A stretch of 64,000 nucleotides of DNA from Minisyncoccota bacterium (GTDB lineage Bacteria; Patescibacteriota; Minisyncoccia; Phycocordibacterales; DATDWN01). Below are positions 27,058 to 45,176 of the stretch, piece by piece; position 1 is the stretch's first letter; each line of letters begins with the position of its first letter. The stretch is from assembly GCA_036517295.1 (NCBI GenBank), contig DATDWZ010000008.1, forward strand, positions 304 through 64,303, given 5' to 3'. The translations under genes and the position numbers were made by a program. The notes below the pieces were generated by a model, which worked only from the letters and a program-made list of their open reading frames with translations, searched no databases and was not told the DNA's origin.

Positions 27058-27079
27058 TACAGCATAACATATTATGCTG

Positions 27080-29186: not shown

Positions 29187-29206
29187 AATGGTATACTATA
29201 GCTGAT

Positions 29207-29971: not shown

Positions 29972-29974
29972 ATA

Positions 29975-30012
29975 AATTTTCAATTTCTAATTTTCAATTT
30001 TCAAAGATTTGA
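29975..30012. repeat. AT-rich intergenic repeat AATTTTCAATTTCTAATTTTCAATTTTCAAA
   Basis: Same core as 17837-17870. Confidence 0.55.
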
Positions 30013-30079
30013 CAGTGAGCGTAAAATTGACATAATAGCCTTAGATTGCGGGATAGAAACCCCATACGAGGAGAAGTCC

Positions 30080-30373
30080 ATGCTCACAGTAACACATGTG
30101 ATCTCAGTCGTTCTGATCCTTACCGGAGTGTTCACCTGGTTCAGAATCTCCAGACGGAACATCCCGCCGGCCACACCTTATCCCGTCGGTTCGGAAATCC
30201 TCCTCGGGAAGGAACTCGTAACGATCGTGGGGCACCGGCACTCCACCAGAAACGGAGACTTCCTGTACGATGTCGAGGGCGAAACGGGTGATCAGGCGGT
30301 GGCACGACATTCAGAAATGTCGTCTATGAAAAAAGTGCGGTCGTCTGGGCAAGAGAAGCAATGGCTACACTAG
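30080..30373 (+). CDS. Small GC-rich protein with N-terminal TM helix (97 aa)
   Basis: AGGAG 6 nt upstream of ATG 30080. The downstream hairpin caggaaaacc-tgccggc-ggttttcctg is a 10-bp perfect stem. About 58% GC. Confidence 0.45.
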   Translation: MLTVTHVISVVLILTGVFTWFRISRRNIPPATPYPVGSEILLGKELVTIVGHRHSTRNGDFLYDVEGETGDQAVARHSEMSSMKKVRSSGQEKQWLH

Positions 30374-30478
30374 ACTGGAAACGGTCCGCGTGTCTGCTAC
30401 GAGCGTGAGAAGCATCCCGGCACAATGGCCGCCGAGCAGGAAAACCTGCCGGCGGTTTTCCTGTTATAATGGAAAATC

Positions 30479-32386: not shown

Positions 32387-32539
32387 TAAATTAGGGGAAA
32401 TTGAGAATAATTCTTTCTCACCATATCCTTTTTGGAGTACGCACTTTTTTTGGTAAAAAAGATGCTCGAATCCTCGCGCCGACGGGCTTCTGAGCCTCCA
32501 AAAAGGACACGGCTCAAAGAATTATTCAATTTTATTTAA

Positions 32540-33082
32540 ATGAAAAAAATACTACAAAAAGACTCGCCCATATTACGACAGAAATCTCTGGAGGTTCCGG
32601 TGAAAGATATTAGTTCACCTAAAATCAAAAAGGTTATAAGGGAAATGAAGGAAGCGTTGAACTCCCAGGATGACGGCGTGGCTATCGCTGCTCCGCAGAT
32701 TGGGTATTCCCTTCGGATATTTATCGTCTCAAAGAAGGTCTTTGAGATAAATAAAGCAGTCAAGGAAAATCCTAGGGGGATTAGTTCAACTGGTCTTGTT
32801 TTTATAAATCCGGTCATAAAAAAAGTATCGAAGGAAAAGAAAGGATTGGAAGAAGGGTGTCTGTCGGTTAGATTTTTATACGGTAAGGTTGAGAGAAGTA
32901 ACAAAGCCACCATATCGGCATACAACGAGGCCGGTAAAAAATTCGAAAGGGGCGGAACGGGACTCTTGGCCCAAATATTCCAACACGAAGTGGATCACCT
33001 GAACGGAATCCTGTTTATCGACAAAGCAAAGAGTCTGGAAGAACTGCCACCTGGGCATGGTATAGATGAACCAAAAAAATAA
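32540..33082 (+). CDS. def: Peptide deformylase
   Basis: EGCLSV and QHEVDHLNG metal-binding motifs. Confidence 0.9.
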   Translation: MKKILQKDSPILRQKSLEVPVKDISSPKIKKVIREMKEALNSQDDGVAIAAPQIGYSLRIFIVSKKVFEINKAVKENPRGISSTGLVFINPVIKKVSKEKKGLEEGCLSVRFLYGKVERSNKATISAYNEAGKKFERGGTGLLAQIFQHEVDHLNGILFIDKAKSLEELPPGHGIDEPKK

Positions 33083-33946
33083 ATGTCGTCAAAAAATAAT
33101 TCTAGTTGGGCATTTTTCGGCACTTCACTATTTTCCGTAACTATATTGGATGAGTTAAGAAGCGCGGGCTTTGTCCCGAATCTTTTAGTCACGGTCCCGG
33201 ACAAGCCGAAAGGCAGAAAGCTAATACTGACCCCTTCGGATACAAAAATCTGGGCGGAGAAAAACGGTATTCCCGTCTTCCAACCGGAAAAATGGGACGA
33301 AGATGCGGTTTCAAAACTTTCAGATTACAGTTTTCGATTTTTTGTCGTAGCCTCGTATGGAAAAATTATTCCTCGACATATTTTGGATATTCCTAAGCAC
33401 GGCGCTTTGAATGTCCACCCCTCACTCCTACCAACACTACGAGGTCCATCCCCTATAGAGAGCGCCATATTGAAAGAAAGTGGGACCGGTGTGACAATCA
33501 TCAAGCTGGATAAAGAGATGGACCATGGGCCGATAATCGCCCAGGAAAAAGTACTGGTTGATGAGTGGCCTCCATACACCAAAGATCTCGAAAACAAACT
33601 GGGGATGGTCGGCGGACAAATACTGGTAAATGTAATCCCTGATTGGCTTCTCGGAAAAATAAAAGGGATCGAGCAAAATCACAGTCTTGCCACTTTTTGT
33701 AAAAAAATAGAAAAGGAAGATGGAAAAATAAATCTAGCCGACAGCCCTGAAGTAAATCTGAGAAAAATAAGAGCCTACCATATATGGCCGGGAGCTTTTT
33801 ATCTCCATCAATCTGGGAAAAGAGAAATCCGTGTAATCATAAAAAGGGCACATATAGAAAACGGTGCATTGATTTTGGATAGAGTATTGCCAGAGGGTAA
33901 GAAAGAAATGGGTTACAAAGATTTCCTTAGAGGATTAAGAAATTAG
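33083..33946 (+). CDS. fmt: Methionyl-tRNA formyltransferase
   Basis: Formyltransferase N-domain, HPSLLP motif, C-terminal domain. Adjacent to def. Confidence 0.9.
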   Translation: MSSKNNSSWAFFGTSLFSVTILDELRSAGFVPNLLVTVPDKPKGRKLILTPSDTKIWAEKNGIPVFQPEKWDEDAVSKLSDYSFRFFVVASYGKIIPRHILDIPKHGALNVHPSLLPTLRGPSPIESAILKESGTGVTIIKLDKEMDHGPIIAQEKVLVDEWPPYTKDLENKLGMVGGQILVNVIPDWLLGKIKGIEQNHSLATFCKKIEKEDGKINLADSPEVNLRKIRAYHIWPGAFYLHQSGKREIRVIIKRAHIENGALILDRVLPEGKKEMGYKDFLRGLRN

Positions 33947-34100
33947 TATTAATAATCATCTATTGACTGGAGAGAAAGATTTTCTGCGGTAGCTTCGGCT
34001 TTTTGCATAACATACAAAAGCACGATGGTTATTATAATGCAACCGAAGACAAAGATTACTAAAAAAGAATTGGCTTTTTGTTGCAATTTACCAATATTTA

Positions 34101-34478
34101 TCATCTCCTTCGTTTAAAGTTAATCCTTTTTAGTATCTCTTTCATCCTAATCGCTCCCTTCTTGAATAAAGTCTTGTATTTATTTTTTCGGGAAACTATG
34201 GCTCGTTCGGCCTCATCGCGAACTATATCTATGGCAGTATATAAATCTATTTCTTCCGCAACAACATATACCTGTTTATTCCCCGGTTGGAGTATGTTTA
34301 CCTCCGCCTTGAATATATCCCCCGATTTGTGATGCTTTGTAGTTCTACCTATCTCGACTTCACACAGAGTCCCATTTTTCACATTCAGAAACTTCTCCAG
34401 CGAAGATATTTTACTCGTTACATAATCCTTTATCGACGGTGTTAAGTCAAAATTTTTTGAGCGAATTTTAATTTGCAT
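34101..34478 (-). CDS. hpf: Ribosome hibernation promoting factor / RaiA family
   Basis: MQIKIRSKNFDLTPSIKDYVTSKISSLEKF... canonical HPF N-terminus. Confidence 0.85.
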   Translation of the reverse strand: MQIKIRSKNFDLTPSIKDYVTSKISSLEKFLNVKNGTLCEVEIGRTTKHHKSGDIFKAEVNILQPGNKQVYVVAEEIDLYTAIDIVRDEAERAIVSRKNKYKTLFKKGAIRMKEILKRINFKRRR

Positions 34479-34597
34479 ATACATACTATTATACACTGTC
34501 AAAAAAGGCCGACAAGGAATTGCATTACTTCATATTTTTGCTATTATCTCTAAGTGCATAAAAAATGCATATGTTAATTTGAAAACGGTTAGTAAGC

Positions 34598-34915
34598 TCC
34601 GGTGTAGCTCAGTGGTAGAGCAATCGCCTGTACCGAAAGGTTGTGCAGCTTCCTAAAGTAATTTAGGATGAAAAATGAGGTGAATTCGGGGAACCCCACA
34701 GTTTAATAGCTGAGGGCAATCCCGAGCCAAGTCCCGAGAGAAATCGAGGGAAAGGTGTAGAGACTATCTCGTAAGAGAGTAGCCGTCACGCAAGTGAGTA
34801 GGCGAAGCGCCCCACATCCCACTCAGAAATGAAGGATGATGATATAGTCCAGACCAAAGGCAACTTTGGATAAAATGTAAGCGATTGGTCGTAGGTTCGA
34901 TCCCTACCGCCGGAG
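34598..34915 (+). tRNA. tRNA-Asn(GUU) interrupted by a group I intron in the anticodon loop (exons 34598-34631 and 34878-34915; CCA not encoded)
   Basis: Acceptor tccggtg/cgccgga (U1-A72, G73 as in Asn). D-arm gctc-agtggta-gagc. Anticodon stem atcgc/gcgat with loop CUGU|UAA after splicing. T-arm gtagg-ttcgatc-cctac. 5' exon ends in U; intron ends in G. Confidence 0.7.
34632..34877 (+). ncRNA. Group I intron (IC3-like, tRNA anticodon-loop type), ~246 nt
   Basis: Conserved core strings AAUCCCGAGCCAAGUCCCGAGAG (cf. AAUCCUGAGCCAAGCCGAAG), AAGGUGUAGAGACUA (P7; cf. GGUGUAGAGACUA) and UCGGGGAACCCC. Ends with omega-G. Confidence 0.7.
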
Positions 34916-36562
34916 CAATGGTCGTGAAAGAGGTATAATTTGCCTCTGTCGTGGCTTTACCAGGGACTTTTTTGAGGTTCGAAAATGATTTCGAGGCTCC
35001 GGAAGTTCCACAAATGGTTGAGAACTCGTTTTTAACAAGGAACCGCCAGCCGTAAGGGTTTTGGTGGTTTTTTGTGCTTGTTCGAAAGTTTTCTCTTGAT
35101 CTAGTCGTTGCTGTACTCTTTCCGCAAGTTTCTGAACTGGAGTTTTCATTGTCGGAGTTACTTCTTTATCTGTAAGTATTAAGTTCGAAAAGATATGACT
35201 CAAAAGTAATCTTCTGTCTTCGGGAGACCTTTTCTCGTATATCTCTCTTGCTCTCCTAGCAAGGTCAATTATATTCAACCAGATTTCAAAATACTTTGCT
35301 TCTTCAGTCTTAATCCTACCAAGTTGTTCTATCACAGCATTTTGCTCTTCTATTATTTCCTTATTTTTTATCTCCCAACGCTCTCTTGTAATTCTCTCAT
35401 CAAGACGGTCATCATATACGTTATCTAAACGTCTCTGTAGTGAGCTGTAGCGGTCGTTAAGCCCCTTGATAGCACTTTCCTTGTACTCTATCTCTTGGGC
35501 GTGGTTTTCCTTAATTTTAACCTTAATTTGCTCTGCCTCTTCTGGTGTTATGGTTTCAAAGAACTTAAAGACTCCAAAGAGTTTGTCTTCGAGTTCCTTT
35601 TCCGGTGCATACTTTTTCTGAGAGCAGTTTCGGTAATGATTGCAGTGATAATAGACTATTCCTTTCTGTATTTCTGCCGTAATAGTCCCACTACATTCTC
35701 CACAGATAAACATTTTTCTAAATTGAAACTCGTGGCGGTTAAAGTGAGGAGTCTTTTTACCCATTCTAATATCTCTAACCTTTTCAAATAACTCTTTGGT
35801 GATAAGGGGTTCGTGAGACCCATTACTAAAAACCTCATCATTCCATTCCATCGCTCCATAGTAAAAAGGATTATTAAGAATACTCTCAATAACACTTTTT
35901 ACCATCTTCTTACCAGATCGAGTCCGAAATCCCTCTTTGTAAAACATCTCAATCACGGCTTTCATAGAATAGTTACCAGAACCATAAAGTTCAAACATCC
36001 TTTTTACGAATGGAGCGATTTCTTGATCTATTATGTGTGTTTTATGTCCCTTCTCACCAATGGTTTTATATCCGAGTGGAGGTTTTGTTGGTAACCACCC
36101 TTGAGCAAGTTTTTCTTTCTGACCCTTTTTTACCTCTTCAGATAGATTTGAAATAAACTTCTTAGCTAGAACTATTTCAATATCCCAGCGAAACTTTTCG
36201 TCAGATTTAGCGTTCTTATGGATAATCAGATTTTGCTTAACAAAATGTATTTGCCTAGAAACATCTCCCTCAACCCAATCGTTAATCGCTAGTGCTTCCT
36301 TGAAGTTGCGAGTAAGTCTATCTACTTTCTCACAGAGTAATATATTTACTTTATTTTTTTCCAAAAACTCTAACATTTCTGCAAAAACCACTCGTTGTTT
36401 TGCACCACTTGCTGACTCTGCAATCGAAAAGACTTTTATCATCTGAAAATCTTTTCGCTGAGCATATTCCTCCATAAGTTTAACCTGTGATGGCAAAGAA
36501 TAACCTGTTTCTTCTTGTTCTTTTGATGAAACTCTACAATAACTAACTGCTTTTATTTTCAT
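34904..36562 (-). CDS. Large serine recombinase (resolvase catalytic domain + recombinase domain + zinc ribbon + coiled coil)
   Basis: YCRVSSKEQ catalytic Ser motif. Recombinase domain. CGECSG...YYHC zinc ribbon. Long coiled coil. The 3' end overlaps the tRNA-Asn 3' end. Confidence 0.85.
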   Translation of the reverse strand: MKIKAVSYCRVSSKEQEETGYSLPSQVKLMEEYAQRKDFQMIKVFSIAESASGAKQRVVFAEMLEFLEKNKVNILLCEKVDRLTRNFKEALAINDWVEGDVSRQIHFVKQNLIIHKNAKSDEKFRWDIEIVLAKKFISNLSEEVKKGQKEKLAQGWLPTKPPLGYKTIGEKGHKTHIIDQEIAPFVKRMFELYGSGNYSMKAVIEMFYKEGFRTRSGKKMVKSVIESILNNPFYYGAMEWNDEVFSNGSHEPLITKELFEKVRDIRMGKKTPHFNRHEFQFRKMFICGECSGTITAEIQKGIVYYHCNHYRNCSQKKYAPEKELEDKLFGVFKFFETITPEEAEQIKVKIKENHAQEIEYKESAIKGLNDRYSSLQRRLDNVYDDRLDERITRERWEIKNKEIIEEQNAVIEQLGRIKTEEAKYFEIWLNIIDLARRAREIYEKRSPEDRRLLLSHIFSNLILTDKEVTPTMKTPVQKLAERVQQRLDQEKTFEQAQKTTKTLTAGGSLLKTSSQPFVELPEPRNHFRTSKKSLVKPRQRQIIPLSRPLLRR

Positions 36563-36600
36563 ATATATATTTATATTATCACTTTTTAATAATCAGCTAC

Positions 36601-36770
36601 AGTCCGACTTCTACCTTCTGATACTATCAACAGGTAGTGGACTCTTATGTATCAGATAACTATGAGCGAGTTTTGTGATAACCTTTTCGTAAATTATTTT
36701 ACGTTTTATATATCCAACCCCGTTCTGAACTATTCCGATACTCTTCAGATGGCAGGGCGAGAAGTCGGAC
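36601..36770. repeat. Long-range inverted repeat agtccgacttct ... agaagtcggac(a) flanking ~150 nt immediately upstream of the recombinase gene (candidate att/recombination site or structured RNA)
   Basis: 11/12-bp inverted repeat at 36601-36612 and 36760-36770. Confidence 0.3.
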
Positions 36771-36818
36771 ACTCGTTTTCCCTGCTTTCGCAAGAGTACC
36801 TGAACACCCCTTATAGGA

Positions 36819-37091
36819 CTAAACGTCCTGTTTTAAAGAACAAGTTTTACCTGATGTCCTTATAGCAGGTTTGTTATCTAAATTGTCTTCCGTTTGCGAC
36901 ACGGGCTCTCTGGGGTTGGTCAAAGAGCTTGTGTCGATAACCGAATATTCGTTTTTCTTATCTTCGTAATCAAACCTTGATAACAAATCAAAGAAAGACG
37001 CCAACCCATTTATTTCTTCTCCGCTCAAAATTGAACTAACAGATTTTTCTGTATCAACTTCATTATTAAAGTTTTGAGATTTCACTGTCAT
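36819..37091 (-). CDS. Hypothetical acidic protein (90 aa)
   Basis: ORF only. Lies between the recombinase and the RM genes. Confidence 0.3.
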   Translation of the reverse strand: MTVKSQNFNNEVDTEKSVSSILSGEEINGLASFFDLLSRFDYEDKKNEYSVIDTSSLTNPREPVSQTEDNLDNKPAIRTSGKTCSLKQDV

Positions 37092-37099
37092 TTCAATTT

Positions 37100-37140
37100 T
37101 TGATAAACAAAAACACCACCCTTTTAGGTGGTTAATTTAC
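37100..37140 (-). terminator. Intrinsic terminator downstream of res (accacc-cttttag-ggtggt + U-tract on minus strand)
   Basis: Hairpin plus TTTTTGTTT on the minus strand. Confidence 0.5.
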
Positions 37141-37287
37141 GTACAGCAAAAGAGCCCCTTGATTGGGTAACTGTATCGGATTATTTAGTAGAGCGAAGTT
37201 TCCATCGGAAACTCACAGTAGCTTGATAACTTAATTATACCCTTTCACAACAGAATAGCAATCACATCTTATCCACTTATTCTATAC

Positions 37288-39699
37288 CTAGAACAAGTCC
37301 TCAAACGGTCTCCATTCCTTACTGTCATTTACTGACTGTCTTTCCCTAAAGGAATACTTCGGACTATCGTTGTAATACCAAAGTCCTGCTTCTTGTACCG
37401 CAATACCACCTACAAACTTTTTACCAAATTGCTTGAGCTTAGCTTGCAATGATTTTGCCTTATCAGCGGTATCTGTACTTGTTGCGGTATCTCCTTTCTT
37501 CGTATCAAAAATACCTATACGACCATCAGAGAAGCGAATAATCCAGTCAGGATAAAACAGGTTTTCTTCTTTTGTTGATGAGTTTGTATATTTAATGCCT
37601 AGATAGTTTTTTCCTTGATCGCCGTTTTTGAACCACCAATCAATCTTCCCTTTTTTCTTTTCCAAGTACTCGACAAAAGCAATTTCATTTTTGCGTCCAT
37701 TATAATCTTCTAATAAGTAGAACTTGTCTAATACACATAACTTTTGAGGGACAACCTTATAATCTTCAGGATACCGATATTCTTCTTGTATAGTAAAAGT
37801 ATATGCTTGCTGTTCTTCTATCTTCTTTTTCTTGTCAGTGAGTAAACTATCTGAAATTGGTTTGTAAGCTCTAAGTGCCTTTGTTATTGCCGGACGAAAC
37901 TTACTTTCAGTACCTTTACGAATATCTTTAATAAATATCTTGTACCAAAAAATATGGTCATCAAGTAAAACTGTCTTAAACCAAACACGAAGTGCTTGTT
38001 TTAACACTGACCAAGAACGAGCTATGTTAGAGTATCTAGCTTTGTCGTCTTCTTGTTCTTTCAAGATTTGGTAACAAAGATAGTTGAATGTTTTTTCAAC
38101 ATCACTCACTGACATTTCAAGAGAAACATCACTACCTTTCTTTTTGAAATCAAAAGCAAGGTTATCGTAGTCCTCAAAACGAGCATTGGCTATAACTTCA
38201 TTTACTAAAGTATTACTAAGATCCAGCCCTGCCTTTTTTAATTTTATCTCTGATTTACCTAAAATATCTTTCTCACTAATACCAAAATGCTTGTTTAATT
38301 CTATTCTAAAAACTTTTTGGAACTCTGAAGATACACGAATATCTCCGTAATCTAAGCGAGAAATATAATCAGAAGGCAACTCTATATTACTTATTCCTTT
38401 TTTTATATGTGCAGTTTCTGTAAGAGCTTTATTCGCAGGGTTTTGATCTGGTATTACTACTTCCTTACGCTTATAGTTTGTATATAGATAACCCAATCGG
38501 AGGTTAGGATTATTTTTGTAATCTTCTTTTGCTTGAGGTTCAGGCATTCGCAAAATACGCCCAACAGTTTGAGTATAAAAAGTATTTGATTGTATCTCTC
38601 TAAACATCACAAGTACCGATGCACGAGGACAGTCCCAACCATTACCAGCAGTTTGTTTGAAGATCAGAAAATCGTGTTCATCGTCATTTTCTTCTAGCCC
38701 CTTCGGTTTATCTTGTCCCTTAGACCATTTTGCAATTTTATGTTCAGGTACTTTCATTCTAACAAGATAATCTGTAACAATTTTTTCCTTTGTCTGTTCG
38801 CCTTTTTCTATTAACTTACTGTCGTCATTCGGTATTTGTATTAACATTAAAGGATTTATTTCTTTCCCGAGTGCCTTAAGTTCAGCTTTTAATTCTTCTC
38901 TTTTATTTATTCCATTTTCAAGAAGAACTCTATCAAGGTCTTTACCGGACATACCCTTAAAATCTTCATCTGTTTGAGTAACAATAGCTTCTTTTATTAA
39001 ACCTTGATCAACCACTTCTTTTCTTGGGACTTCATAATAACTACCAAGACGGCGAGCATCCAGTTCGTCATCTCGGTTTGGTGTAGCTGTAATGTGAAGA
39101 ATTACCTTAGGATCAATCATCTCGATAATATCCTTTGCGAGCCTCGTGTCTTTGTTTTTATGGGCTTCATCAATAACTAAAATAATCTGCCTGCCATCAG
39201 CGTGTGTTTGCTCAATTACATCCTCAAAGTATTTACCCGTTTCTTTTATCCACTCTTCATCTTCAGGACGGCGAAGTAATCTTGTTTCTGCACTTTTAGC
39301 AGTAACTTTTTGCCAATTCAAAAACAAAATATCATTTTGATATAGTTTGCCTTGATTTATATCTGCAACAGTCAAAGCTCTGTTTTCAAGCATATTTTCA
39401 AAATACTCAAGAAACTTACCTTTACTTTGCATAGCCAAATCATCACTGAAAGTAATCCAAATAAATGCCTTGTCTTCTTTCCATTGTGGTAAATGATTAA
39501 GGCCACGAATAAAGAGTGAGGTCATAAAGGTTTTACCGCTACCAGTTGGCGATTTGAAAACAATAGGTAATTGTCTGCCTTGTTGTTTCCATATCGCTAC
39601 AAACATATCTGTAAGATTTTCTACAGCAGTTTTTTGGAATTGTAATGGATTAAATGTTTTCATATTAAATAATATTGTATATTTGCTTGTATACCTCAA
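37288..39699 (-). CDS. res: Type III restriction enzyme Res subunit (SF2 helicase + C-terminal PD-(D/E)xK endonuclease)
   Basis: KSPTGSGKTF (motif I), LVIDEAHKN (DEAH), ITATPN (motif III). C-terminal PDWIIRF...IGIFDTKKG nuclease motif. Confidence 0.85.
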   Translation of the reverse strand: MRYTSKYTILFNMKTFNPLQFQKTAVENLTDMFVAIWKQQGRQLPIVFKSPTGSGKTFMTSLFIRGLNHLPQWKEDKAFIWITFSDDLAMQSKGKFLEYFENMLENRALTVADINQGKLYQNDILFLNWQKVTAKSAETRLLRRPEDEEWIKETGKYFEDVIEQTHADGRQIILVIDEAHKNKDTRLAKDIIEMIDPKVILHITATPNRDDELDARRLGSYYEVPRKEVVDQGLIKEAIVTQTDEDFKGMSGKDLDRVLLENGINKREELKAELKALGKEINPLMLIQIPNDDSKLIEKGEQTKEKIVTDYLVRMKVPEHKIAKWSKGQDKPKGLEENDDEHDFLIFKQTAGNGWDCPRASVLVMFREIQSNTFYTQTVGRILRMPEPQAKEDYKNNPNLRLGYLYTNYKRKEVVIPDQNPANKALTETAHIKKGISNIELPSDYISRLDYGDIRVSSEFQKVFRIELNKHFGISEKDILGKSEIKLKKAGLDLSNTLVNEVIANARFEDYDNLAFDFKKKGSDVSLEMSVSDVEKTFNYLCYQILKEQEDDKARYSNIARSWSVLKQALRVWFKTVLLDDHIFWYKIFIKDIRKGTESKFRPAITKALRAYKPISDSLLTDKKKKIEEQQAYTFTIQEEYRYPEDYKVVPQKLCVLDKFYLLEDYNGRKNEIAFVEYLEKKKGKIDWWFKNGDQGKNYLGIKYTNSSTKEENLFYPDWIIRFSDGRIGIFDTKKGDTATSTDTADKAKSLQAKLKQFGKKFVGGIAVQEAGLWYYNDSPKYSFRERQSVNDSKEWRPFEDLF

Positions 39700-41350
39700 G
39701 GATTGGTTGCGGTATTGTTTTGAGATTTATTTTTTTGTTATCTTCAAAATCAGCAATTTCAACTCTTTCTTCCCAACTAAACATATAAACTGTTACTGGT
39801 TTTTTAAGTGATAGGACTTCTTTTATAAACTCATCAAGTTTGTTTTGTTCTTCTCTGAAATATACTGCTGTCATTCTATCTTTGTTTTCAAACACTTGCC
39901 AATAATCATTTTTCTTTACTTGCTCTAGCGTATTTTCTGCGATTGCGAGCATTTCACCTGCGTGATGAGCTAGTAGTATTTTGTCTTTATCATCTGCATC
40001 AAGAATGTTGTGCTTACCAACAAAAGCAGTTTTGTAAAACTTAACTGATTGAAACAACCCACCTTTATCATTATATCCAGTAATGGCTGTTTTAATTCTT
40101 GGTAAACAAATATCGCTCATTATGTTATTTTCGTTGTCGGTAACTAAGATAAATTGCCTTGAACCTTTTGTGTCTTCATCTTTATTTAATTGCATAACAG
40201 CGTGTCCTGTTGTTCCTGAACCAGCAAAGAAATCTAAAACAATTATATTATTATCAAAATGGTTTAGTAATTCTCTTATTAGTTTAGTAGGTTTTACTGT
40301 GTCAAAACCGTGTTCTTTACCAAGAATTAAAGATAACTCTTTTTTACCGTCTTCAGCTGTATCAACTTGTTCTTTAAGCAGAAGCGACCAAAAAGGTCTT
40401 TCAATGGATTGATTTTCGTCTTCAGGATAGATAATTTTTTTTACTTTCCCTTCCACTATAATTATTTTATCTTCTTCAATTAAGCGATTAACTTCCTGAA
40501 GTCCAATTTTCCATCTTTTACCCGTTTGTGGAATAACACCTAAGATTGGAAACTTCATAGTATCTCTTTTCTTTCTTCCTATATCTGAGTCCTCAATATC
40601 AACAAGACGAGCTAGTCCTTTTTTAGTTTGAAAATTATATTTTCTTTGACCTTGTTCTTTTAGGACAAAACCTAGATATTTTTCTTTTGGTATCGCATTA
40701 CTATAACAAAGAATGTATTCTATGTTTTGCTGTATTTGATATTTTGCCTTACCAGAATTAACTGGTTTGGTTTTATTCTGCCAATTAAGGATACCCAGCA
40801 ATGAAGTTTCGCCAAAAATACTATCAGTAAGAAGTTTTAATTGTGCAAACTCGTTATCGTCAATACTTATGAAAATAACACCGTCTTTCGTTAGAAGGTC
40901 TTTGGATAACTCTAACCTCTTTCGCATAAAAGAAAGCCAGTAGCTATGACGAAAAGGGTGGTCTTTTGGCACATCTGTTCCATCAGGATATTTATCTAAA
41001 ATCCTTTTATCTTTATAACGAAAACCGTCTTCTCCTGTGTTGTACGGCGGGTCAATATAAATAACATCAATCTTGCTCTTATGTGTGTAATTTAAGCAAG
41101 TAAGTGCGTGGTAATTATCACCCTCAATAAGTAGGTGGGTGGGTTCGGTATCTTTACTTTTAATTCCTTTTGTGGGTACATCTTCAAGAATTGGTAGTTT
41201 ATTTTCTACATCATCTTCAAAACCTTCAGGCACATCAAGCCACACTAAACCATAGTGTTGTGTTTTTACAGCTTTTTTCCATTTCTCAATTTCTTTTTCA
41301 AGCTTGAGAATGTGATTTTCTTTTTGTTGTAGTAATTCTTTTTCAGTCAT
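39665..41350 (-). CDS. mod: Type III restriction-modification Mod subunit (N6-adenine DNA methyltransferase, beta class)
   Basis: YIDPPYNTG (motif IV) lies upstream of FFAGSGTTGHAV (motif I). Overlaps the res start. Confidence 0.85.
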   Translation of the reverse strand: MTEKELLQQKENHILKLEKEIEKWKKAVKTQHYGLVWLDVPEGFEDDVENKLPILEDVPTKGIKSKDTEPTHLLIEGDNYHALTCLNYTHKSKIDVIYIDPPYNTGEDGFRYKDKRILDKYPDGTDVPKDHPFRHSYWLSFMRKRLELSKDLLTKDGVIFISIDDNEFAQLKLLTDSIFGETSLLGILNWQNKTKPVNSGKAKYQIQQNIEYILCYSNAIPKEKYLGFVLKEQGQRKYNFQTKKGLARLVDIEDSDIGRKKRDTMKFPILGVIPQTGKRWKIGLQEVNRLIEEDKIIIVEGKVKKIIYPEDENQSIERPFWSLLLKEQVDTAEDGKKELSLILGKEHGFDTVKPTKLIRELLNHFDNNIIVLDFFAGSGTTGHAVMQLNKDEDTKGSRQFILVTDNENNIMSDICLPRIKTAITGYNDKGGLFQSVKFYKTAFVGKHNILDADDKDKILLAHHAGEMLAIAENTLEQVKKNDYWQVFENKDRMTAVYFREEQNKLDEFIKEVLSLKKPVTVYMFSWEERVEIADFEDNKKINLKTIPQPILEVYKQIYNII

Positions 41351-41352
41351 AT

Positions 41353-41526
41353 TTATTTTGTGCTTGCTTTTTTTAAGAATGCTTCAAACTCAACTTTCGC
41401 TATCCGATACTCTTTGCCTATTTTATATGCCTTGAGCTTTTTTGCATCTATGTAGCGATAAATGGTCATAATGTTCAGGCCAAGTTTTTCTGCTAAATCA
41501 TTTGCTGTGTAAAAATCTTTATTCAT
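41353..41526 (-). CDS. Excisionase-family / MerR-like HTH DNA-binding protein (57 aa); possible controller of the RM operon
   Basis: MNKDFYTANDLAEKLGLNIMTIYRYIDAKKLKAYKIGKEYRIAKVEFEAFLKK is the Xis-family HTH pattern. The stop is 2 nt before the mod ATG, and the ATG overlaps the upstream gene's stop. Confidence 0.6.
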   Translation of the reverse strand: MNKDFYTANDLAEKLGLNIMTIYRYIDAKKLKAYKIGKEYRIAKVEFEAFLKKASTK

Positions 41527-42005
41527 TGTAATTGCTTAAGGTTTTTATAATACTGATCAACTTTTTTAGACCAATTTGGGTAAAATTGTTCCCAAGTAGG
41601 TATAACACTCACTGGTAATTGCCTCATCGGTGTTTCTTTGTGTTGTTGACTTTTTCTTCCGAGTGTTTTCATCCATATTTCTTGTGAATGTTTTATCAAT
41701 GGAGCAACCACCTTGCTTGGGATAATCCAGAAGTCTGGCTCTTTGTTGAATTGATTGAGGCGAACAAAAGCATAATAGAAATCATTAGACGCTCCATTTT
41801 CATCCTTAGCCGAAAGTATAAAACTTTTTGCAGTTTCTCTGTAAGCAGTTTTTATTGAAAGTTTTATAGCTCTACCGTCTGGACTCAATGCTAAAATATC
41901 ATATTTTTCAGCTCGTCCAAGCGTAAGGGTAGCAATGAAGTTTTCCGCTGAGAGCCGAGAAGCTATGTAGTATTCTCCTGCGTTACCGATATTTTGTTTT
42001 TGCAT
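41523..42005 (-). CDS. Hypothetical protein, possible PD-(D/E)xK-like nuclease fold, first gene of the HTH-mod-res operon
   Basis: GNAGEYYIASRLSAENFIATLTLGRAEKYDILALSPDGRAIKLSIKT resembles the Mrr/Hjc-type E..VA..L..G...D(i)la...K.xVK core. The fold assignment is tentative. Translationally coupled (ATGA overlap) to the HTH gene. Confidence 0.5.
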   Translation of the reverse strand: MQKQNIGNAGEYYIASRLSAENFIATLTLGRAEKYDILALSPDGRAIKLSIKTAYRETAKSFILSAKDENGASNDFYYAFVRLNQFNKEPDFWIIPSKVVAPLIKHSQEIWMKTLGRKSQQHKETPMRQLPVSVIPTWEQFYPNWSKKVDQYYKNLKQLQ

Positions 42006-42296
42006 AGTTATAATTATACTTTACTATTCTTTACAAGCCAAACTCACGAAGTGGACAACCTTATGAACACAACATAATAAAAATAGTATTGGCAGATCAA
42101 TAACCTATGATATAATTCACCCACAACTGAATAAGCAGACCTAACCCTATAGTTTTTATTATAGGTATGGTTGCAGGTCGTATAAGGCACAAAGAACCCA
42201 TCGCAGGGTCGCCTTATACGCCTTATCGGGAAACCGGTATGAGGGACTTCGGTCTCTACCTGTGGTGGGCTTTTTGTATATAAAAATAGTAAAATT

Positions 42297-43271
42297 ATGA
42301 AAAAACACTACTCCTCAAACAAGGGTTTCATACAAATACCTGTTTTATTTTTTATAATTACCGGGATAATTATTACTGGTGGTGCTGGTTATTTTGGAGT
42401 AAAAAAATATGAAAATTATCATATTACCAAAGGGAAAGAAAAAGTAACGGAAGAAATTAAACCTCAAAAAGACATAGGGGTTGAAAAATTAACGAAAGAG
42501 ACTGGGGCATCAAAAGATACTAAGCCAGATGTTAAAAAGGGGGCAATTACACCTTATGACTATGACCACCCCGAAAATAATCTTTCGTCATACCAACCCA
42601 AAATAAATGGTGCTGATGATAGTGTTTCTGTCATCAAAAAATGGAAGCCTAGAGTTGCATACATTGATTGTAAGGTTGTTTTTAATGGAAATAATATGGG
42701 AGAACAAACTGGTTCTGGGTATTTACTGGGTTACGACTCTCAAAATGGCGACATTATAATACTAACAAATCTTCACATAATTAAAGTTAATTTGTACTAC
42801 CCTGACGGTGAACCAATCGGCACATCCCTCACAGCAACTTCTTGTGATATTAAAATCCCGGGTGATACTCAGTTTGTAACAGTTTATAAAGAAGATGGTT
42901 CTTTCACTGTTTCAGATAAAGAAGATTTTGCTCAAGTAACTGTAAAAAACCCAACTCCTTATATGACTAAAACTATAAAAAGTATATCGGGTAGTAACTG
43001 TATAAGTAAAGCCGAACTGGGTGAAAGAATACTAATACTTGGTTATCCCGGAATTGGCGACCAAAATGATATAACTGTAACTGACGGAATAATATCTGGC
43101 TATGACGGAAACCACTACATAACATCAGCAAAAATTGAATACGGTAATTCTGGTGGTATAGCAATATCGCTTAAAAATAACTGTTATTTAGGCATCCCAA
43201 CTTTTGTTATTTCTGGAGAGCTGGAGTCTTTAGCAAGGATTTTGAACGTCAATGCGATATTTCCTAATTAA
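42297..43271 (+). CDS. Membrane-anchored trypsin-like (S1) serine protease
   Basis: N-terminal TM. TNLHII (His), GNSGGIA (catalytic Ser, GDSGG-like). No PDZ domain. Confidence 0.7.
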   Translation: MKKHYSSNKGFIQIPVLFFIITGIIITGGAGYFGVKKYENYHITKGKEKVTEEIKPQKDIGVEKLTKETGASKDTKPDVKKGAITPYDYDHPENNLSSYQPKINGADDSVSVIKKWKPRVAYIDCKVVFNGNNMGEQTGSGYLLGYDSQNGDIIILTNLHIIKVNLYYPDGEPIGTSLTATSCDIKIPGDTQFVTVYKEDGSFTVSDKEDFAQVTVKNPTPYMTKTIKSISGSNCISKAELGERILILGYPGIGDQNDITVTDGIISGYDGNHYITSAKIEYGNSGGIAISLKNNCYLGIPTFVISGELESLARILNVNAIFPN

Positions 43272-43274
43272 AAT

Positions 43275-43646
43275 ATGTTCAAAACAATTAACAAGTTTTC
43301 AAGATTAACAATTGTATTCACTGTTTTATATATACTTAGTGGTGTGTTTCTATTACTTCTCTCATTATCAGAAATATACCCAGTTTCAACTCCTTTTGAG
43401 TGGATACCAACCTTTGTATATGGAAACAAACTCTTATTACATCTAGTTTTGTCAATTCCTAATTACCTGTTTTGGATATTATCTACTCTTATACTTGGAC
43501 TTGTAATTACAGCAATTGTTTTAGGTATAAGAGCGATCAAACAGACAAGCAAAACAAAAGAGAAAGGTAGGTGGATAGCGTTACTGCTGACAACACTTAA
43601 TATCTTCCTACTTATAATTCTTGTGCCTATTGCTTTTATACTTTAA
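43275..43646 (+). CDS. Small polytopic membrane protein (3-4 TM), unknown
   Basis: Hydrophobic profile only. 4 nt downstream of the protease. Confidence 0.5.
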   Translation: MFKTINKFSRLTIVFTVLYILSGVFLLLLSLSEIYPVSTPFEWIPTFVYGNKLLLHLVLSIPNYLFWILSTLILGLVITAIVLGIRAIKQTSKTKEKGRWIALLLTTLNIFLLIILVPIAFIL

Positions 43647-43663
43647 TACCGAATATAGTAAGT

Positions 43664-44065
43664 CTATTTTTTCTGAAACTTAGACATAAGTCGCTCAATT
43701 AACTGTTCACGGGTATAACTAGCATAGATATTATGTTCCTCTGGAGAATATGCACCGACAACTTTGAATACTTGATCTGTTGCTTTTAATCTATCGTTTG
43801 GCTTTACTTTATCATTTAACATTATTTCTTCCACCACTTTCCTAGCAGAATACTCGTCAAAGCCTAGTGCTTTTAGTTCCTCTTGTACTCCTTTTTGAGC
43901 AATAGTCTCTCCGGGCTTTTTCTTTGCTTGCGTTTTGGTATATCCTACTTTTTCCAACAACTCACTCTTATTAAGAGGTTTAGCTCTTTTAGAGTTAAGG
44001 ACTATCTCATTTGCGAGATTTTTTTGTCTTAGTGTAGATCTATTTTTGTTTTGTTTTATATACAC
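43664..44065 (-). CDS. Phage terminase small-subunit-like HTH protein (TerS/Terminase_2-like), tentative
   Basis: LRQKNLANEIVLNSKRAKPLNKSELLEKVGYTKTQAKKKPGETIAQKGVQEEL resembles the N-terminal Terminase_2 pattern. No large subunit nearby. Confidence 0.35.
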   Translation of the reverse strand: MYIKQNKNRSTLRQKNLANEIVLNSKRAKPLNKSELLEKVGYTKTQAKKKPGETIAQKGVQEELKALGFDEYSARKVVEEIMLNDKVKPNDRLKATDQVFKVVGAYSPEEHNIYASYTREQLIERLMSKFQKK

Positions 44066-44075
44066 CTTTTTTTAT

Positions 44076-44831
44076 TTAATTCTTTTTTTTACTATTTCTG
44101 GTTCTACGACTATTACTTTTTTTAGAAATCTTCTTTACAAAAACGGTCGGTGTTATATCATCTGAAACTGGTGGATTGCTGATAATCTGATCATTATCGA
44201 TTTGATTAGTTGGTGCAGGTAATTGAGAAACAGGTTTAATTCTTTTCTCATAGTAGTTGTTCAATATCTCTGGTTGAGGAGTTACAAAGTATGTAGGTAA
44301 ATAGACTGGATAACCCTTATTATTCTCATACTCGATGGTTTTTCTTAAACCCGTAATTTCCATAAAAAATGGAGCTGGATAATCAGTAATATTTGTTGTG
44401 TATATTACCGAGTTTGTAATAAAAGCTGTAGCCCCTACAATTTTATCAGCTAATGATACTTGACCCGTAGAAATACCAATTTCTTTGTAGAAACAACCTA
44501 GTCGTCCTGCAATTCTCAAAACAACTTCGTCAATTAAAAATGTCTGTACTCCATTTAATGCATTCTCAATCTTAATTTCTTCCTCTACAGAAGACTCATC
44601 AATAAGTTCAAACAAGGTAACACTAGAGATTGCAACTCCCCAACCCGGACTTACAGCAAATACACTTTTCAAGTAGTCGATTATAAGCTTTGCAACCTGA
44701 TCGTTACTTTTACTTATTCCACCTCTGCAAGCAGATGCACGTGAAAGAGTGTTGGTATCAAAAATTAAATAACGAGATGGTTTTTCATTATTTGGTTGAG
44801 TATTATTCTGCGGTGTTTGTTCTGTGTCCAT
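44076..44831 (-). CDS. PIN-like domain protein with C-terminal extension, tentative
   Basis: RYLIFDTNTL ... LFELIDE acidic pattern typical of PIN. Weak. Confidence 0.4.
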   Translation of the reverse strand: MDTEQTPQNNTQPNNEKPSRYLIFDTNTLSRASACRGGISKSNDQVAKLIIDYLKSVFAVSPGWGVAISSVTLFELIDESSVEEEIKIENALNGVQTFLIDEVVLRIAGRLGCFYKEIGISTGQVSLADKIVGATAFITNSVIYTTNITDYPAPFFMEITGLRKTIEYENNKGYPVYLPTYFVTPQPEILNNYYEKRIKPVSQLPAPTNQIDNDQIISNPPVSDDITPTVFVKKISKKSNSRRTRNSKKKN

Positions 44832-45039
44832 CTTGTTCTAATTTATTTTCCCCTATTGAAGAAAAAACGCCACCAGAAATAGCCCTCTCAATTTGATCTA
44901 AAGCACTGTTAGTTGAGAGTTTTTTTATCTCTTTCTTTTCACTCAACAGATCATTTGGATTTCTACTAAAATCAAACTTTACTAACTCTGCGTTAGGTAA
45001 TTTGCCTTTTGAACTATATTTTTCTTCTTCTTTTGTCAT
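44803..45039 (-). CDS. Small hypothetical protein overlapping the PIN-like gene start (antitoxin-like position)
   Basis: 78 aa. 29-nt overlap with the downstream PIN-like ORF. Confidence 0.3.
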   Translation of the reverse strand: MTKEEEKYSSKGKLPNAELVKFDFSRNPNDLLSEKKEIKKLSTNSALDQIERAISGGVFSSIGENKLEQDGHRTNTAE

Positions 45040-45176
45040 AGTGGTATTATACTACACAAAAAGCAAACTTTTTATTTGTTCCAATGCTATGTTGGGATAT
45101 GGGTATTCCTTAATCCAATCTATCGTTCTAAAATCGTCCGCCAGAGCGAGCTTAATAACTGTTTTGTAAGATTCAA

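What the first reader, a model, noticed from the sequence alone, without database searches (positions are those of the whole stretch)
34598..36562. tRNA-Asn(GUU) split by a group I intron, overlapped at its 3' end by a large serine recombinase
The tRNA exons (34598-34631; 34878-34915) assemble into a canonical class I tRNA with a CUGUUAA anticodon loop, U1-A72 and G73 (Asn-like). The 246-nt insert carries group I core strings (AAUCCCGAGCCAAG..., GGUGUAGAGACUA) and 5'-U / 3'-G splice-site hallmarks. Bacterial tRNA group I introns are best known in tRNA-Leu(UAA), fMet, Ile and Arg; an Asn host is uncommon to my knowledge. The recombinase ORF (34904-36562) runs into the tRNA 3' end, the classic signature of an integrated element using the tRNA as attB.
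Basis: partly seen in the sequence, partly recalled or inferred. Interest (0 to 1): 0.65.

Follow-up and report, generated by a model that had tools for sequence, protein, structure and literature searches.

The report
Intron-split tRNA-Asn with docked recombinase island
A Patescibacteria tRNA-Asn gene is interrupted by a self-splicing group I intron, an arrangement already published, and a 10 kb mobile island has been inserted at the tRNA's last four bases by a serine recombinase whose own gene is cut by the insertion.

Summary
Both parts of the finding hold. Window 34598-34916 is tRNA-Asn(GUU) split between anticodon nt 35 and 36 by a 246-nt group I intron (Rfam 75.6 bits; ARAGORN in intron mode). 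Ten related introns support every core helix by covariation. Seven intron-less genes elsewhere equal exon1+exon2 exactly.

This class is already published for Patescibacteria, with in vitro splicing of relatives (Williams 2020; Nakagawa et al. 2026), so the headline is not new.

The recombinase is a large serine recombinase (LSR) that delivered a 10,235-bp island (34917-45151) carrying a type III R-M system and a LOOT RNA. A near-identical contig from another sample lacks the island. The junctions share only GAGC, which is tRNA nt 71-74.

New here, as far as my literature searches show:
- The crossover lies inside the LSR reading frame. Integration replaces a conserved 31-residue tail with two tRNA-antisense codons.
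- The tail-coding remnant sits at the far island end, in the window and in at least 30 related loci.
- A related 7-kb circular contig carries the unbroken gene.
- Of 79 related LSR loci, 53 abut tRNA-Asn whether or not it has an intron, so intron and island are independent.

The function of the tail swap is inferred, not shown.

The parts
34598..34631 (+). tRNA-Asn(GUU) 5' exon (nt 1-35; ends in U35 of the anticodon)
   Evidence: ARAGORN on the joined exons and in intron mode. It is 100% identical to the 5' half of seven intron-less tRNA-Asn genes.
34632..34877 (+). Group I intron, 246 nt, no ORF, inserted between anticodon nt 35 and 36; omega-G at 34877
   Evidence: Rfam RF00028 at 75.6 bits against a gathering score of 50. 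Covariation analysis on 11 related introns gives 94.8% of cells paired and 33 of 53 pairs with compensatory change. The longest open frame is 40 codons.
34628..34648 (+). P1: exon CUGU plus intron A (34628-34632) paired with U-GCAG (34644-34648); U34631.G34645 wobble at the 5' splice site; ACC-GAAA-GGU tip
   Evidence: The four exon pairs are invariant and the fifth covaries (GC:5, AU:4, CG:2) across 11 introns.
34652..34667 (+). P2 hairpin
   Evidence: All 6 pairs show compensatory changes.
34676..34756 (+). 5' strand of P3 (34676-34682), P4 (34686-34691 with 34720-34725), P5 (34695-34716), P6/P6a (34726-34756)
   Evidence: RNAalifold consensus and pair counts. The P and Q elements are GAAUUCGGGGAACCCC and AAUCCCGAGC.
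34762..34766 (+). P7 5' strand (GACUA, within the R element GGUGUAGAGACUA)
   Evidence: Invariant in 11 introns; pairs with 34845-34849.
34767..34803 (+). P7.1 (34767-34778) and P7.2 (34782-34803), peripheral hairpins between P7 and P3' typical of subgroup IA
   Evidence: RNAfold gives -12.4 kcal/mol. P7.1 covaries in L018, L023, L027, L033 and L038. The paper classifies Patescibacteria tRNA introns as IA.
34808..34869 (+). P3 3' strand (34808-34814), P8 (34815-34838), P7 3' strand UAGUC (34845-34849, S element), P9 (34854-34869)
34878..34916 (+). tRNA-Asn 3' exon (nt 36-74); no encoded CCA
34913..34916 (.). attL crossover core GAGC (tRNA nt 71-74)
   Evidence: This is the 4-bp overlap of the two blastn segments of the empty-site contig L002 against the window. 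The core is conserved at attL and attR in 16 of 17 related loci.
34917..45151 (.). Integrated island, 10,235 bp, about 34% G+C against about 41% in the flanks
   Evidence: Absent from L002, whose flanks are 100% and 99.99% identical to the window. Composition.
34904..36562 (-). Large serine recombinase gene, integrated form (552 aa); the last 2 sense codons and the stop are tRNA antisense
   Evidence: Pfam Resolvase, Recombinase and Zn_ribbon_recom. More than 1900 homologues, mostly Patescibacteria. Reconstruction of the C-terminus.
34920..34956 (+). Strong hairpin directly after the tRNA, in the island's P' side, antisense to the LSR linker coding
   Evidence: strand folding gives -21.7 kcal/mol, z -2.7. 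Related islands carry a hairpin plus T-run at this place.
35035..35075 (+). Terminator-like hairpin plus U-run in tRNA sense, inside the LSR ORF
   Evidence: strand folding gives -22.6 kcal/mol, z -4.6.
36819..37091 (-). 90-aa ORF upstream of the LSR; the only accessory protein family shared by most islands
   Evidence: Present in 18 of 30 delimited islands. No Pfam or PHROG hit.
37288..41350 (-). Type III restriction-modification system (res 37288-39663/39699; mod 39665-41350)
   Evidence: Pfam ResIII and N6_N4_Mtase. PADLOC REase_III and MTase_III, the latter at E 7e-74.
41353..41526 (-). 57-aa HTH_17, excisionase-like protein
   Evidence: Called gene with PF12728. PHROG 66, excisionase/regulator, E 5e-8.
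42138..42257 (+). LOOT RNA, 40 nt upstream of a secreted trypsin-like protease gene (42297-43271)
   Evidence: Rfam RF03000 at 72.9 bits. Recurs in 36 of 81 related LSR loci.
45052..45150 (-). Detached 3' end of the LSR gene (tail LALADDFRTIDWIKEYPYPNIALEQIKSLLFV plus stop); also the P arm of attP
   Evidence: It continues the LSR frame when the island is circularised. Found by tblastn in the window and at least 30 loci. pN/pS is 0.31.
45148..45151 (.). attR crossover core GAGC, preceded by CCGCCAGAGC, a 9/10 mimic of the tRNA acceptor 3' strand

Best explanation
The locus holds two independent genetic elements on one tRNA gene of a Candidatus Paceibacterota (Patescibacteria) genome.

(1) The intron. 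tRNA-Asn(GUU) is transcribed with a 246-nt group I intron between anticodon nucleotides 35 and 36.
- The intron's guide sequence GCAG pairs with the exon's CUGU to form P1, with a U.G wobble at the splice site.
- The P3-P9 core folds, with P7.1/P7.2 peripheral hairpins of the IA type.
- Guanosine attack followed by omega-G34877 ligates the exons into a normal 73-nt tRNA. CCA is added afterwards.
- Sequence and structure are shown here. Splicing is inferred from close relatives that self-splice in vitro.

(2) The island. A 10.2-kb island was inserted by its own large serine recombinase (LSR) through a crossover within GAGC, which is tRNA nt 71-74. The mature tRNA sequence is therefore untouched.
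- The phage-type site (attP) lies inside the 3' end of the recombinase gene.
- The excised form would encode a 581-aa protein ending in a conserved 31-residue helical tail.
- The integrated form encodes 552 aa, ending two codons into the antisense tRNA.
- The tail-coding piece is left at the other island end, next to attR.

I infer that this gives the element a built-in record of its integration state: full-length enzyme only from the free circle. What the tail does is unknown.

This LSR family targets the 3' end of tRNA-Asn throughout Patescibacteria, with or without the intron.
For: Intron and tRNA:
- Rfam hit and ARAGORN calls.
- Eleven related tRNA-Asn introns give 94.8% paired cells against 36-45% for slid controls. 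33 of 53 pairs carry compensatory changes, and 0 of 500 shuffles reach the observed values.
- Seven intron-less tRNA-Asn genes in metagenomes are 100% identical to exon1+exon2 joined at 34631|34878.
- Relatives of this intron class were shown to self-splice precisely at 35/36 (PMC13011429).

Island:
- Contig L002 from another sample has the same flanks at 100% and 99.99% identity without the 10,235 bp, with a 4-bp overlap GAGC.
- Contigs L005 and L006 end exactly at 34916, which is the assembly fork.
- The island has lower G+C.

Split gene:
- Circularising the island extends the ORF by 31 codons.
- The same tail ends intact LSR proteins P0045, P0071, P0098 and P0101.
- P0071 sits on a 6,979-nt contig with 30-nt identical termini and no tRNA, which is the signature of a circle.
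- Tail remnants lie in the LSR's orientation 5-11 kb upstream of the LSR in at least 30 integrated loci.
- The distal tail has pS 0.84 and pN 0.26.

Family-wide targeting:
- Of 79 genome loci, 53 LSR ORFs run into tRNA-Asn (37 intron-less, 15 with an intron, 1 undetermined). Another 11 run into other tRNAs.
- The P arm carries the tRNA T-arm motif GG.GGA..TCGAAC 5 bp further from the core than in attB.
Against: - Splicing of this particular intron was not tested. P3 has one A.C mismatch in the window (34678/34812).
- Only 64 kb of the genome is visible, so a second tRNA-Asn gene cannot be excluded.
- Neither the attP junction of this very island nor the 581-aa protein is present in the public data searched. 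Excision of this copy has therefore not been observed. The empty site could be ancestral rather than the product of excision.
- A regulatory role for the tail swap rests on analogy and on sequence conservation only. AlphaFold gives the tail just moderate confidence (pLDDT 66-71).
- The central dinucleotide within GAGC is not resolved.
Confidence: 0.88

Rival explanations
1. The gene is tRNA-Thr(UGU) with the intron at 33/34. Shifting both boundaries by two nucleotides gives the anticodon loop CUUGUAA.
For: The shifted splice also yields a cloverleaf. ARAGORN and tFind make exactly this call for many related genes (PMC13011429). ARAGORN did so for L033, L038, L042 and L090 here.
Against: - Under this reading the intron would end in A, not G.
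- The invariant P1 places the U.G wobble at 34631.
- The tRNA body is 68/73 identical to intron-less tRNA-Asn of relatives.
- It is 100% identical to seven intron-less GTT genes.
- It has U1-A72 and G73.
Confidence: 0.02
2. The split gene is a decaying pseudogene, and an intact tRNA-Asn elsewhere in the genome does the work.
For: Only 64 kb of the genome can be inspected. There is one A.C mismatch in P3.
Against: - The exons carry no change relative to seven intact tRNA-Asn genes.
- All core helices, the guide sequence, U-1 and omega-G are intact.
- The locus is 100% conserved across at least 7 assemblies.
- In the published genomes chosen for the splicing assays, the intron-bearing gene is the only copy of that tRNA gene.
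Confidence: 0.05
3. The overlap of the recombinase ORF with the tRNA is incidental. The recombinase is a resolvase or invertase, or the island arrived by another route.
For: There are no long direct repeats at the island ends. No excised form of this island was found.
Against: - The presence/absence polymorphism has its breakpoints exactly at the ORF's last codons.
- The same geometry, mostly a 13-nt overlap, recurs in dozens of loci.
- The detached tail at the far end continues the reading frame.
- The domain set is that of large serine integrases.
Confidence: 0.03
4. attP overlaps the end of the recombinase gene only because these elements are compact. On this reading the tail swap has no regulatory consequence, and the tail's conservation reflects att-site DNA constraints or a function irrelevant to directionality. 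This rivals only the 'integration-state switch' inference, not the anatomy.
For: - The first 10 tail codons coincide with the conserved P arm and have lower pS (0.57) than the rest.
- The integrated-form endings are arbitrary, 2 to about 40 residues.
- AlphaFold shows the tail on a disordered linker at moderate confidence.
Against: - Codons 11-31 lie beyond a normal half-site, yet are conserved as protein with near-saturated synonymous sites (pS 0.84, pN/pS 0.31).
- The arrangement is kept across LSRs that are only 45-60% identical.
Confidence: 0.5

Closest known systems
Group I introns at position 35/36 of tRNA-Asn(GUU) in Patescibacteria (Nakagawa et al., mSystems 2026, PMC13011429; class 'Asn.4Ug' of Williams 2020, bioRxiv 10.1101/2020.01.27.920355)
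   Same: Same host tRNA, same insertion site, same phylum, same U-1/omega-G boundaries, similar length (the published mean is 257 bp), IA-type P7.1/P7.2, and no homing endonuclease. Default tRNA finders miss the gene in the same way.
   Different: Nothing essential: this is a further instance. The paper does not mention integrases or islands at these genes (0 occurrences of 'integrase').
Cyanobacterial and plastid tRNA-Leu(UAA) intron, and the Azoarcus tRNA-Ile and Agrobacterium tRNA-Arg introns (my own knowledge)
   Same: Small ORF-less self-splicing group I introns in the anticodon loop. P1 is built from anticodon-loop nucleotides.
   Different: Those are subgroup IC3, inserted at 34/35 or 36/37, and lack P7.1/P7.2.
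Phage large serine integrases (A118/LI, TP901-1, phiC31, Bxb1)
   Same: Resolvase catalytic domain, recombinase domain, and zinc ribbon with a long coiled-coil insert. Short att sites with a tiny identical core. The distal DNA motif is displaced by 5 bp between attP and attB, as in the A118 integrase model (Rutherford et al. 2013, from memory).
   Different: Only 22-30% identical to any phage integrase in GenBank phages, and E about 1e-6 to solved structures. The target is the 3' end of a tRNA gene. attP lies inside the integrase's own coding sequence. The carrier is a 5-11 kb element without virion genes.
Integrase genes that span attP: Myxococcus phage Mx8 intP/intX (integrates at tRNA-Asp) and Sulfolobus SSV1 integrase (from memory)
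   Same: The crossover falls inside the int ORF, so integration changes or splits the integrase. The target is a tRNA gene 3' end.
   Different: Those are tyrosine recombinases with longer identity segments. Here the enzyme is a serine recombinase, the core is 4 bp, and only the last 31 residues are exchanged.
Tyrosine-integrase genomic islands at tRNA genes
   Same: Island adjacent to the tRNA 3' end, integrase gene next to the tRNA, and the tRNA is kept intact.
   Different: There is no duplication of a 15-50 bp tRNA 3' segment, and the recombinase family is different.

Membership tests
Group I intron (Rfam RF00028) | Covariance-model score above the curated gathering score, over the full model | tested here: met
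   75.6 bits against 50, model positions 1-253.
Group I intron (Rfam RF00028) | P1 formed by the 5' exon and an internal guide sequence, with a U.G wobble at the 5' splice site | tested here: met
   CUGU:GCAG is invariant and the next pair covaries in 11 introns.
Group I intron (Rfam RF00028) | Conserved core P3-P4-P6-P7-P8 with the P3/P7 pseudoknot, and a terminal omega-G | tested here: met
   All helices were recovered. 33 of 53 pairs carry compensatory changes, and 0 of 500 shuffles reach the observed values. G is at 34877.
Group I intron (Rfam RF00028) | Guanosine-dependent self-splicing | not testable with these tools
   Shown in vitro for two related Patescibacteria introns (PMC13011429), not for this one.
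Patescibacteria tRNA-Asn 35/36 intron class | Insertion between anticodon nt 35 and 36 of tRNA-Asn(GUU) | tested here: met
   ARAGORN in intron mode. Seven intron-less genes are identical to the joined exons.
Patescibacteria tRNA-Asn 35/36 intron class | Host belongs to Patescibacteria | tested here: met
   The window's proteins equal NCBI HEY45051xx/HEY45052xx entries of a 'Candidatus Paceibacterota bacterium' MAG.
Patescibacteria tRNA-Asn 35/36 intron class | Subgroup IA architecture | tested here: inconclusive
   P7.1 and P7.2 hairpins are present between P7 and P3'. No formal subgroup classifier was run.
tRNA-Asn | Canonical cloverleaf with GUU anticodon and a body like known tRNA-Asn | tested here: met
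   ARAGORN. 68/73 identity to intron-less tRNA-Asn of relatives, against 24-32/73 to other tRNAs.
Large serine recombinase / serine integrase | N-terminal resolvase catalytic domain with nucleophile serine, recombinase domain, and zinc ribbon with coiled-coil insert | tested here: met
   Pfam PF00239, PF07508 and PF13408. R10, V11 and S12 are invariant in 32 homologues. The AF2 model of relative P0071 has long helices at 340-444.
Large serine recombinase / serine integrase | Recombination between short dissimilar attP and attB sites sharing only a few central base pairs | tested here: met
   The empty and occupied sites differ by 10,235 bp with a 4-bp shared core. The catalytic act itself is not testable here.
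Tyrosine-integrase type tRNA island | Direct repeat of a tRNA 3' segment (about 15-50 bp) at both island ends | tested here: not met
   No repeat within 3 mismatches of the 22-nt 3' end. Only GAGC plus an offset 9/10 mimic is shared.
Integrases whose gene spans attP (Mx8 IntP/IntX, SSV1 type) | Crossover inside the int ORF, so the integrated and free forms encode different proteins | tested here: met
   552 aa integrated against 581 aa reconstructed. Intact forms exist in relatives, including a circular contig.
Integrases whose gene spans attP (Mx8 IntP/IntX, SSV1 type) | Tyrosine recombinase fold | tested here: not met
   The protein is a serine recombinase. The resemblance is in design, not in ancestry.

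The most novel reading that the evidence does not exclude
Patescibacteria carry a widespread family of small (5-11 kb) integrative elements with the following proposed properties.
- Their large serine integrase has its attP inside its own 3' coding end.
- Docking onto the last four bases of tRNA-Asn removes a conserved 31-residue tail, which acts as a covalent integration-state switch controlling directionality or re-integration.
- The same elements carry the orphan LOOT RNA as a leader that controls secreted or membrane cargo proteins.
Probability: 0.35. Interest if true: 0.6.

Novelty: new member of a known kind. Interest (0 to 1): 0.4.

Why it matters
For the intron, this is one more confirmed case of a published class. 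Its practical value is as a reminder that default tRNA finders report no tRNA-Asn here, which distorts genome-completeness estimates for Patescibacteria.

The recombinase side adds more.
- It gives a precise attB/attP/attL/attR set for a serine integrase lineage that is distant from all characterised ones. The 4-bp core sits on a universally conserved tRNA end, which could interest people who mine integrases as genome-engineering tools.
- It shows a serine-integrase version of the "integrase gene cut by its own integration" design, known so far from tyrosine recombinases.
- It gives a genomic home, mobile elements of Patescibacteria, to the function-less LOOT RNA.

Tried and rejected
- Direct or inverted repeat search for an attR copy of the tRNA 3' end: nothing beyond chance. 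The boundary came from an empty-site contig instead.
- Look-up of the HPF protein with the mechanical TTG start failed. fmt worked.
- The promoter/terminator scan did not flag the hairpins that folding later showed.
- The attP junction of this island was searched in JGI metagenome contigs: 0 hits. The 581-aa form is not in the protein collection.
- Literature searches returned nothing relevant for 'serine integrase + tRNA + Patescibacteria', 'serine recombinase + tRNA-Asn', 'Patescibacteria + serine recombinase + integrated', or attP within the integrase gene. The novelty claim for the LSR arrangement rests on these limited searches and on memory.
- The AlphaFold model of the intact relative P0071 gave only moderate confidence for the tail and no mechanistic insight. 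No fold search was run on it.
- Dyad symmetry between the P and P' arms or the B and B' arms was looked for. P' and B' are poorly conserved, so the central dinucleotide could not be assigned.
- The tRNA-Thr(UGU) 33/34 reading and the pseudogene reading were considered and rejected (see rival explanations).
- The LOOT entry was sought in Weinberg et al. 2017. It is not described in the main text.
Full report
**Observation**

- ARAGORN in default mode finds no tRNA in the whole window.
- On the joined exons, or in intron mode, it calls a 73-nt tRNA-Asn(GTT) with a 246-nt insert at 34632-34877, between anticodon nucleotides 35 and 36.
- Rfam's group I intron model matches 34630-34870 over its full length at 75.6 bits (gathering score 50, E 2e-17).
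- The recombinase ORF (34904-36562, minus strand, 552 aa) has Resolvase, Recombinase and zinc-ribbon domains. Its stop codon lies in the tRNA T-stem, giving a 13-nt overlap.

**The intron**

From genome loci fetched through the recombinase I extracted 14 further tRNA-Asn genes with inserts of 194-579 nt at the same site. Five other loci were involved in ARAGORN errors:
- Four had been called tRNA-Thr(UGU) with the intron at 33/34. This is the two-base boundary error the literature describes.
- A fifth, L028, had been called tRNA-Glu. Manual inspection recognised it as tRNA-Asn with an intron.

An alignment of the 11 short introns with 8-nt exon flanks gave an RNAalifold consensus containing the following:
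- the tRNA anticodon stem;
- P1, formed by exon CUGU with the guide GCAG, with a U.G wobble at the splice site;
- P2, P3, P4, P5, P6/P6a, P8 and P9.

I added the invariant P7 (GACUA/UAGUC) by hand. Counting on this structure:

| Measure | Observed | Control |
|---|---|---|
| Cells forming a standard pair | 94.8% | 36-45% when partners are slid |
| Pairs with compensatory changes | 33 of 53 | shuffled mean 21.2 |
| Shuffles reaching the observed values | 0 of 500 | - |

Further points on the window's intron:
- Between P7 and the 3' strand of P3 lie two hairpins, P7.1 (34767-34778) and P7.2 (34782-34803). These are the peripheral elements typical of subgroup IA.
- The intron has no open frame longer than 40 codons, so it carries no homing endonuclease.
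- P3 has one A.C mismatch in the window.

**Identity and splice junction of the tRNA**

- The spliced sequence is 68/73 identical to intron-less tRNA-Asn genes of related genomes, against 24-32/73 to other tRNAs.
- A scan of metagenome contigs for the predicted exon junction found seven intron-less tRNA-Asn genes. They are 100% identical to exon 1 plus exon 2 joined exactly at 34631|34878. Their flanks are unrelated, so they come from other organisms.
- The alternative 33/34 splice (tRNA-Thr) would leave an intron ending in A and contradicts P1.

**What is already known**

This class is published.
- Williams (bioRxiv 10.1101/2020.01.27.920355) expanded the known intron-bearing tRNA types from 4 to 21. 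According to Nakagawa et al., these include Asn at loop position 4.
- Nakagawa et al. [quoted passage not shown] They showed precise in vitro self-splicing for one tRNA-Asn intron and one tRNA-Asp intron, classified nearly all Patescibacteria tRNA introns as IA, and noted that standard tools miss or mis-call these genes.
- The window's proteins are identical to entries of a 'Candidatus Paceibacterota bacterium' MAG.

The intron half of the finding is therefore a correct new instance of a known class.

**The island**

Looking up the contigs that encode the window's fmt protein returned assemblies from several samples.
- L001, L003 and L004 match the window.
- L002 has the same backbone but jumps from the tRNA straight to the cytidine-deaminase gene.

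blastn against the window:

| L002 segment | Window segment | Identity |
|---|---|---|
| 1-11834 | 23083-34916 | 100% |
| 11831-20864 | 45148-54181 | 99.99% |

- The island is thus 34917-45151 (10,235 bp).
- The two junctions share only GAGC (34913-34916 and 45148-45151), which is tRNA nt 71-74.
- Contigs L005 and L006 end exactly at 34916, as expected at an assembly fork where both alleles coexist.
- The island has about 34% G+C against about 41% in the flanks.
- Its cargo is a type III restriction-modification pair, an excisionase-like HTH_17 protein, a LOOT RNA, a secreted trypsin-like protease and small unknown ORFs. There are no virion or conjugation genes.
- The mature tRNA sequence is unchanged by the insertion. 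No CCA is encoded in either state.
- A strong hairpin (34920-34956) and a terminator-like hairpin with a U-run (35035-35075) follow the tRNA on the island side. The empty site has no comparable structure.

**The recombinase gene is cut by the integration**

The crossover lies in codons 549-550 (Leu-Leu) of the ORF. Joining the island ends extends the frame by 31 codons. The protein then ends ...PLLALADDFRTIDWIKEYPYPNIALEQIKSLLFV (581 aa) instead of ...PLLRR (552 aa).

A protein search found more than 1,900 homologues at E <= 1e-10. The best 120 are 54-100% identical, and every source name that gives a taxon names a Patescibacteria lineage. Their C-termini fall into three classes after the conserved Leu-Leu:
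- two to four residues and a stop;
- strings such as PRLDSNQ or REQGSNLRPIA, which are the antisense translation of a tRNA T-arm;
- the same conserved tail as my reconstruction (P0045, P0071, P0098, P0101).

Supporting observations:
- P0071 lies on a 6,979-nt contig without any tRNA. Its ends repeat 30 nt, the k-1 signature of a circle.
- tblastn with tail peptides finds the detached tail in the LSR's orientation 5-11 kb upstream of the recombinase in at least 30 integrated loci, as in the window at 45052-45150. Island sizes are 5.4-11.5 kb.
- Nei-Gojobori counts on 22 tails give pS 0.84 and pN 0.26 for codons 11-31, and pS 0.57 and pN 0.18 for codons 1-10. The distal tail is conserved as protein, while the proximal part also carries DNA constraint as the P arm.
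- An AlphaFold model of P0071 shows a disordered linker (residues 490-518) followed by three short helices at pLDDT 66-71.

**Target choice of the family**

| Situation at the LSR ORF's 3' end | Loci (of 79) |
|---|---|
| Overlaps tRNA-Asn | 53 (37 intron-less, 15 with a group I intron, 1 undetermined at a contig end) |
| Overlaps another tRNA (Gln x4, Tyr x2, Leu x2, Val, Arg, Ser) | 11 |
| No tRNA, intact tail, or contig end | 15 |

- Rfam confirmed the introns in seven of eight loci tested.
- All tRNA-Asn genes end in GAGC, and the core is present at both junctions in 16 of 17 loci.
- The P arm consensus carries the motif GG.GGA...TCGAAC. This mimics the antisense T-arm of the tRNA, but lies 5 bp further from the core than in attB. 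From memory, that matches the model for serine integrases in which the zinc-ribbon motif is displaced by 5 bp between attP and attB (Rutherford et al. 2013).
- P' and B' are poorly conserved.
- The intron is irrelevant to targeting. Intron and island are two independent residents of the same gene.

**Mechanism, and what is inferred**

Shown:
- the structure of the intron and tRNA;
- the presence/absence polymorphism and the exact junctions;
- the split reading frame and its generality.

Inferred:
- that this intron self-splices, by homology to tested relatives;
- that the LSR catalysed the insertion;
- that the loss of the tail matters.

By analogy with Mx8 IntP/IntX and SSV1 (from memory), I propose that the full-length enzyme is made only from the free circle. 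The integrated copy would then make a tail-less enzyme with altered activity. The rival view, that the overlap is mere compaction, is about equally likely.

The 90-aa ORF upstream of the LSR is the only accessory family shared by 18 of 30 islands. It is a candidate directionality factor, as is the HTH_17 protein.

**Comparison and novelty**

- The closest solved or characterised relatives of the enzyme are the A118 and TP901-1 integrases (E about 1e-6). GenBank phage integrases reach only 22-30% identity.
- I found no paper describing serine integrases at tRNA-Asn in Patescibacteria, or a serine integrase gene spanning its attP. These searches were limited.
- Overall: the headline is already known, the island is an ordinary kind of object, and the split-gene design and its spread are a modestly new variant.

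**Negative results**

- The attP junction of this island is absent from JGI metagenome contigs.
- The 581-aa protein is absent from the protein collection.

Excision of this copy has therefore not been seen.

Noticed in passing
window 42138-42257 (+); also L014, L016-L018, L020, L023, L026-L029, L033, L091, L092 and others: LOOT RNA (Rfam RF03000, function unknown) lies inside the island. A covariance model built from five copies finds one copy in 36 of 81 related recombinase loci, including a circular element, mostly antisense to the recombinase. An ORF starts 4-100 nt downstream in nearly every case. These ORFs are unrelated in sequence, but almost all begin with a signal peptide or transmembrane helix. 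LOOT therefore looks like a leader of secreted or membrane cargo genes of these mobile elements.
   Followed up: partly
window 36819-37091 (-): A 90-aa ORF just upstream of the recombinase belongs to the only accessory protein family shared by 18 of 30 delimited islands (motif SFFDLLAxFDYED). It has no Pfam or PHROG match. It is a candidate directionality factor or regulator.
   Followed up: partly
window 34920-34956 and 35035-35075 (+): The island places a strong hairpin and a terminator-like hairpin with a U-run right after the tRNA, antisense within the recombinase coding region. Related islands have a hairpin plus T-run at the same place. The empty site has no such structure. The island may therefore supply the tRNA's terminator.
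   Followed up: partly
window 1-4000: This segment has 57-58% G+C against about 41% elsewhere. It encodes an HTH_3 protein and an AAA_21 (AbiEii-like) ATPase, and may be another foreign patch or a defence locus.
   Followed up: no
L024, L027, L031, L040, L042 (upstream of the recombinase): Two or three tandem copies of the detached tail-coding remnant occur 0.7-3.7 kb apart. They look like scars of successive integrations at the same tRNA.
   Followed up: no
L095-L097, L099 (about 30 nt downstream of intron-less tRNA-Asn): After a terminator hairpin comes an inverted, degenerate copy of the tRNA-Asn 3' end (GCTCTCGGCG...GTAGGGATCGA). Its origin is unexplained.
   Followed up: no
L094 2273-3853: An intron-less tRNA-Asn identical to the window's is followed 72 nt later by a different serine recombinase (25% identical) on the opposite strand. 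The tRNA-Asn 3' end seems to be a hotspot for more than one recombinase lineage.
   Followed up: no
L036, L050, L056, L042, L064, L084, L087: Close relatives of the recombinase sit on contigs binned as Methanoperedens, Nanoarchaeia, Methanodesulfokora, Gammaproteobacteria and Bacteroidota. This is either mis-binning of Patescibacteria contigs or a wider host range.
   Followed up: no
L035, L052, L074; remnants in L024, L062: A second, shorter tail type (LLRTWDDVRxxIxxxN) ends some recombinase ORFs that have no tRNA next to them. Its meaning is unknown.
   Followed up: no
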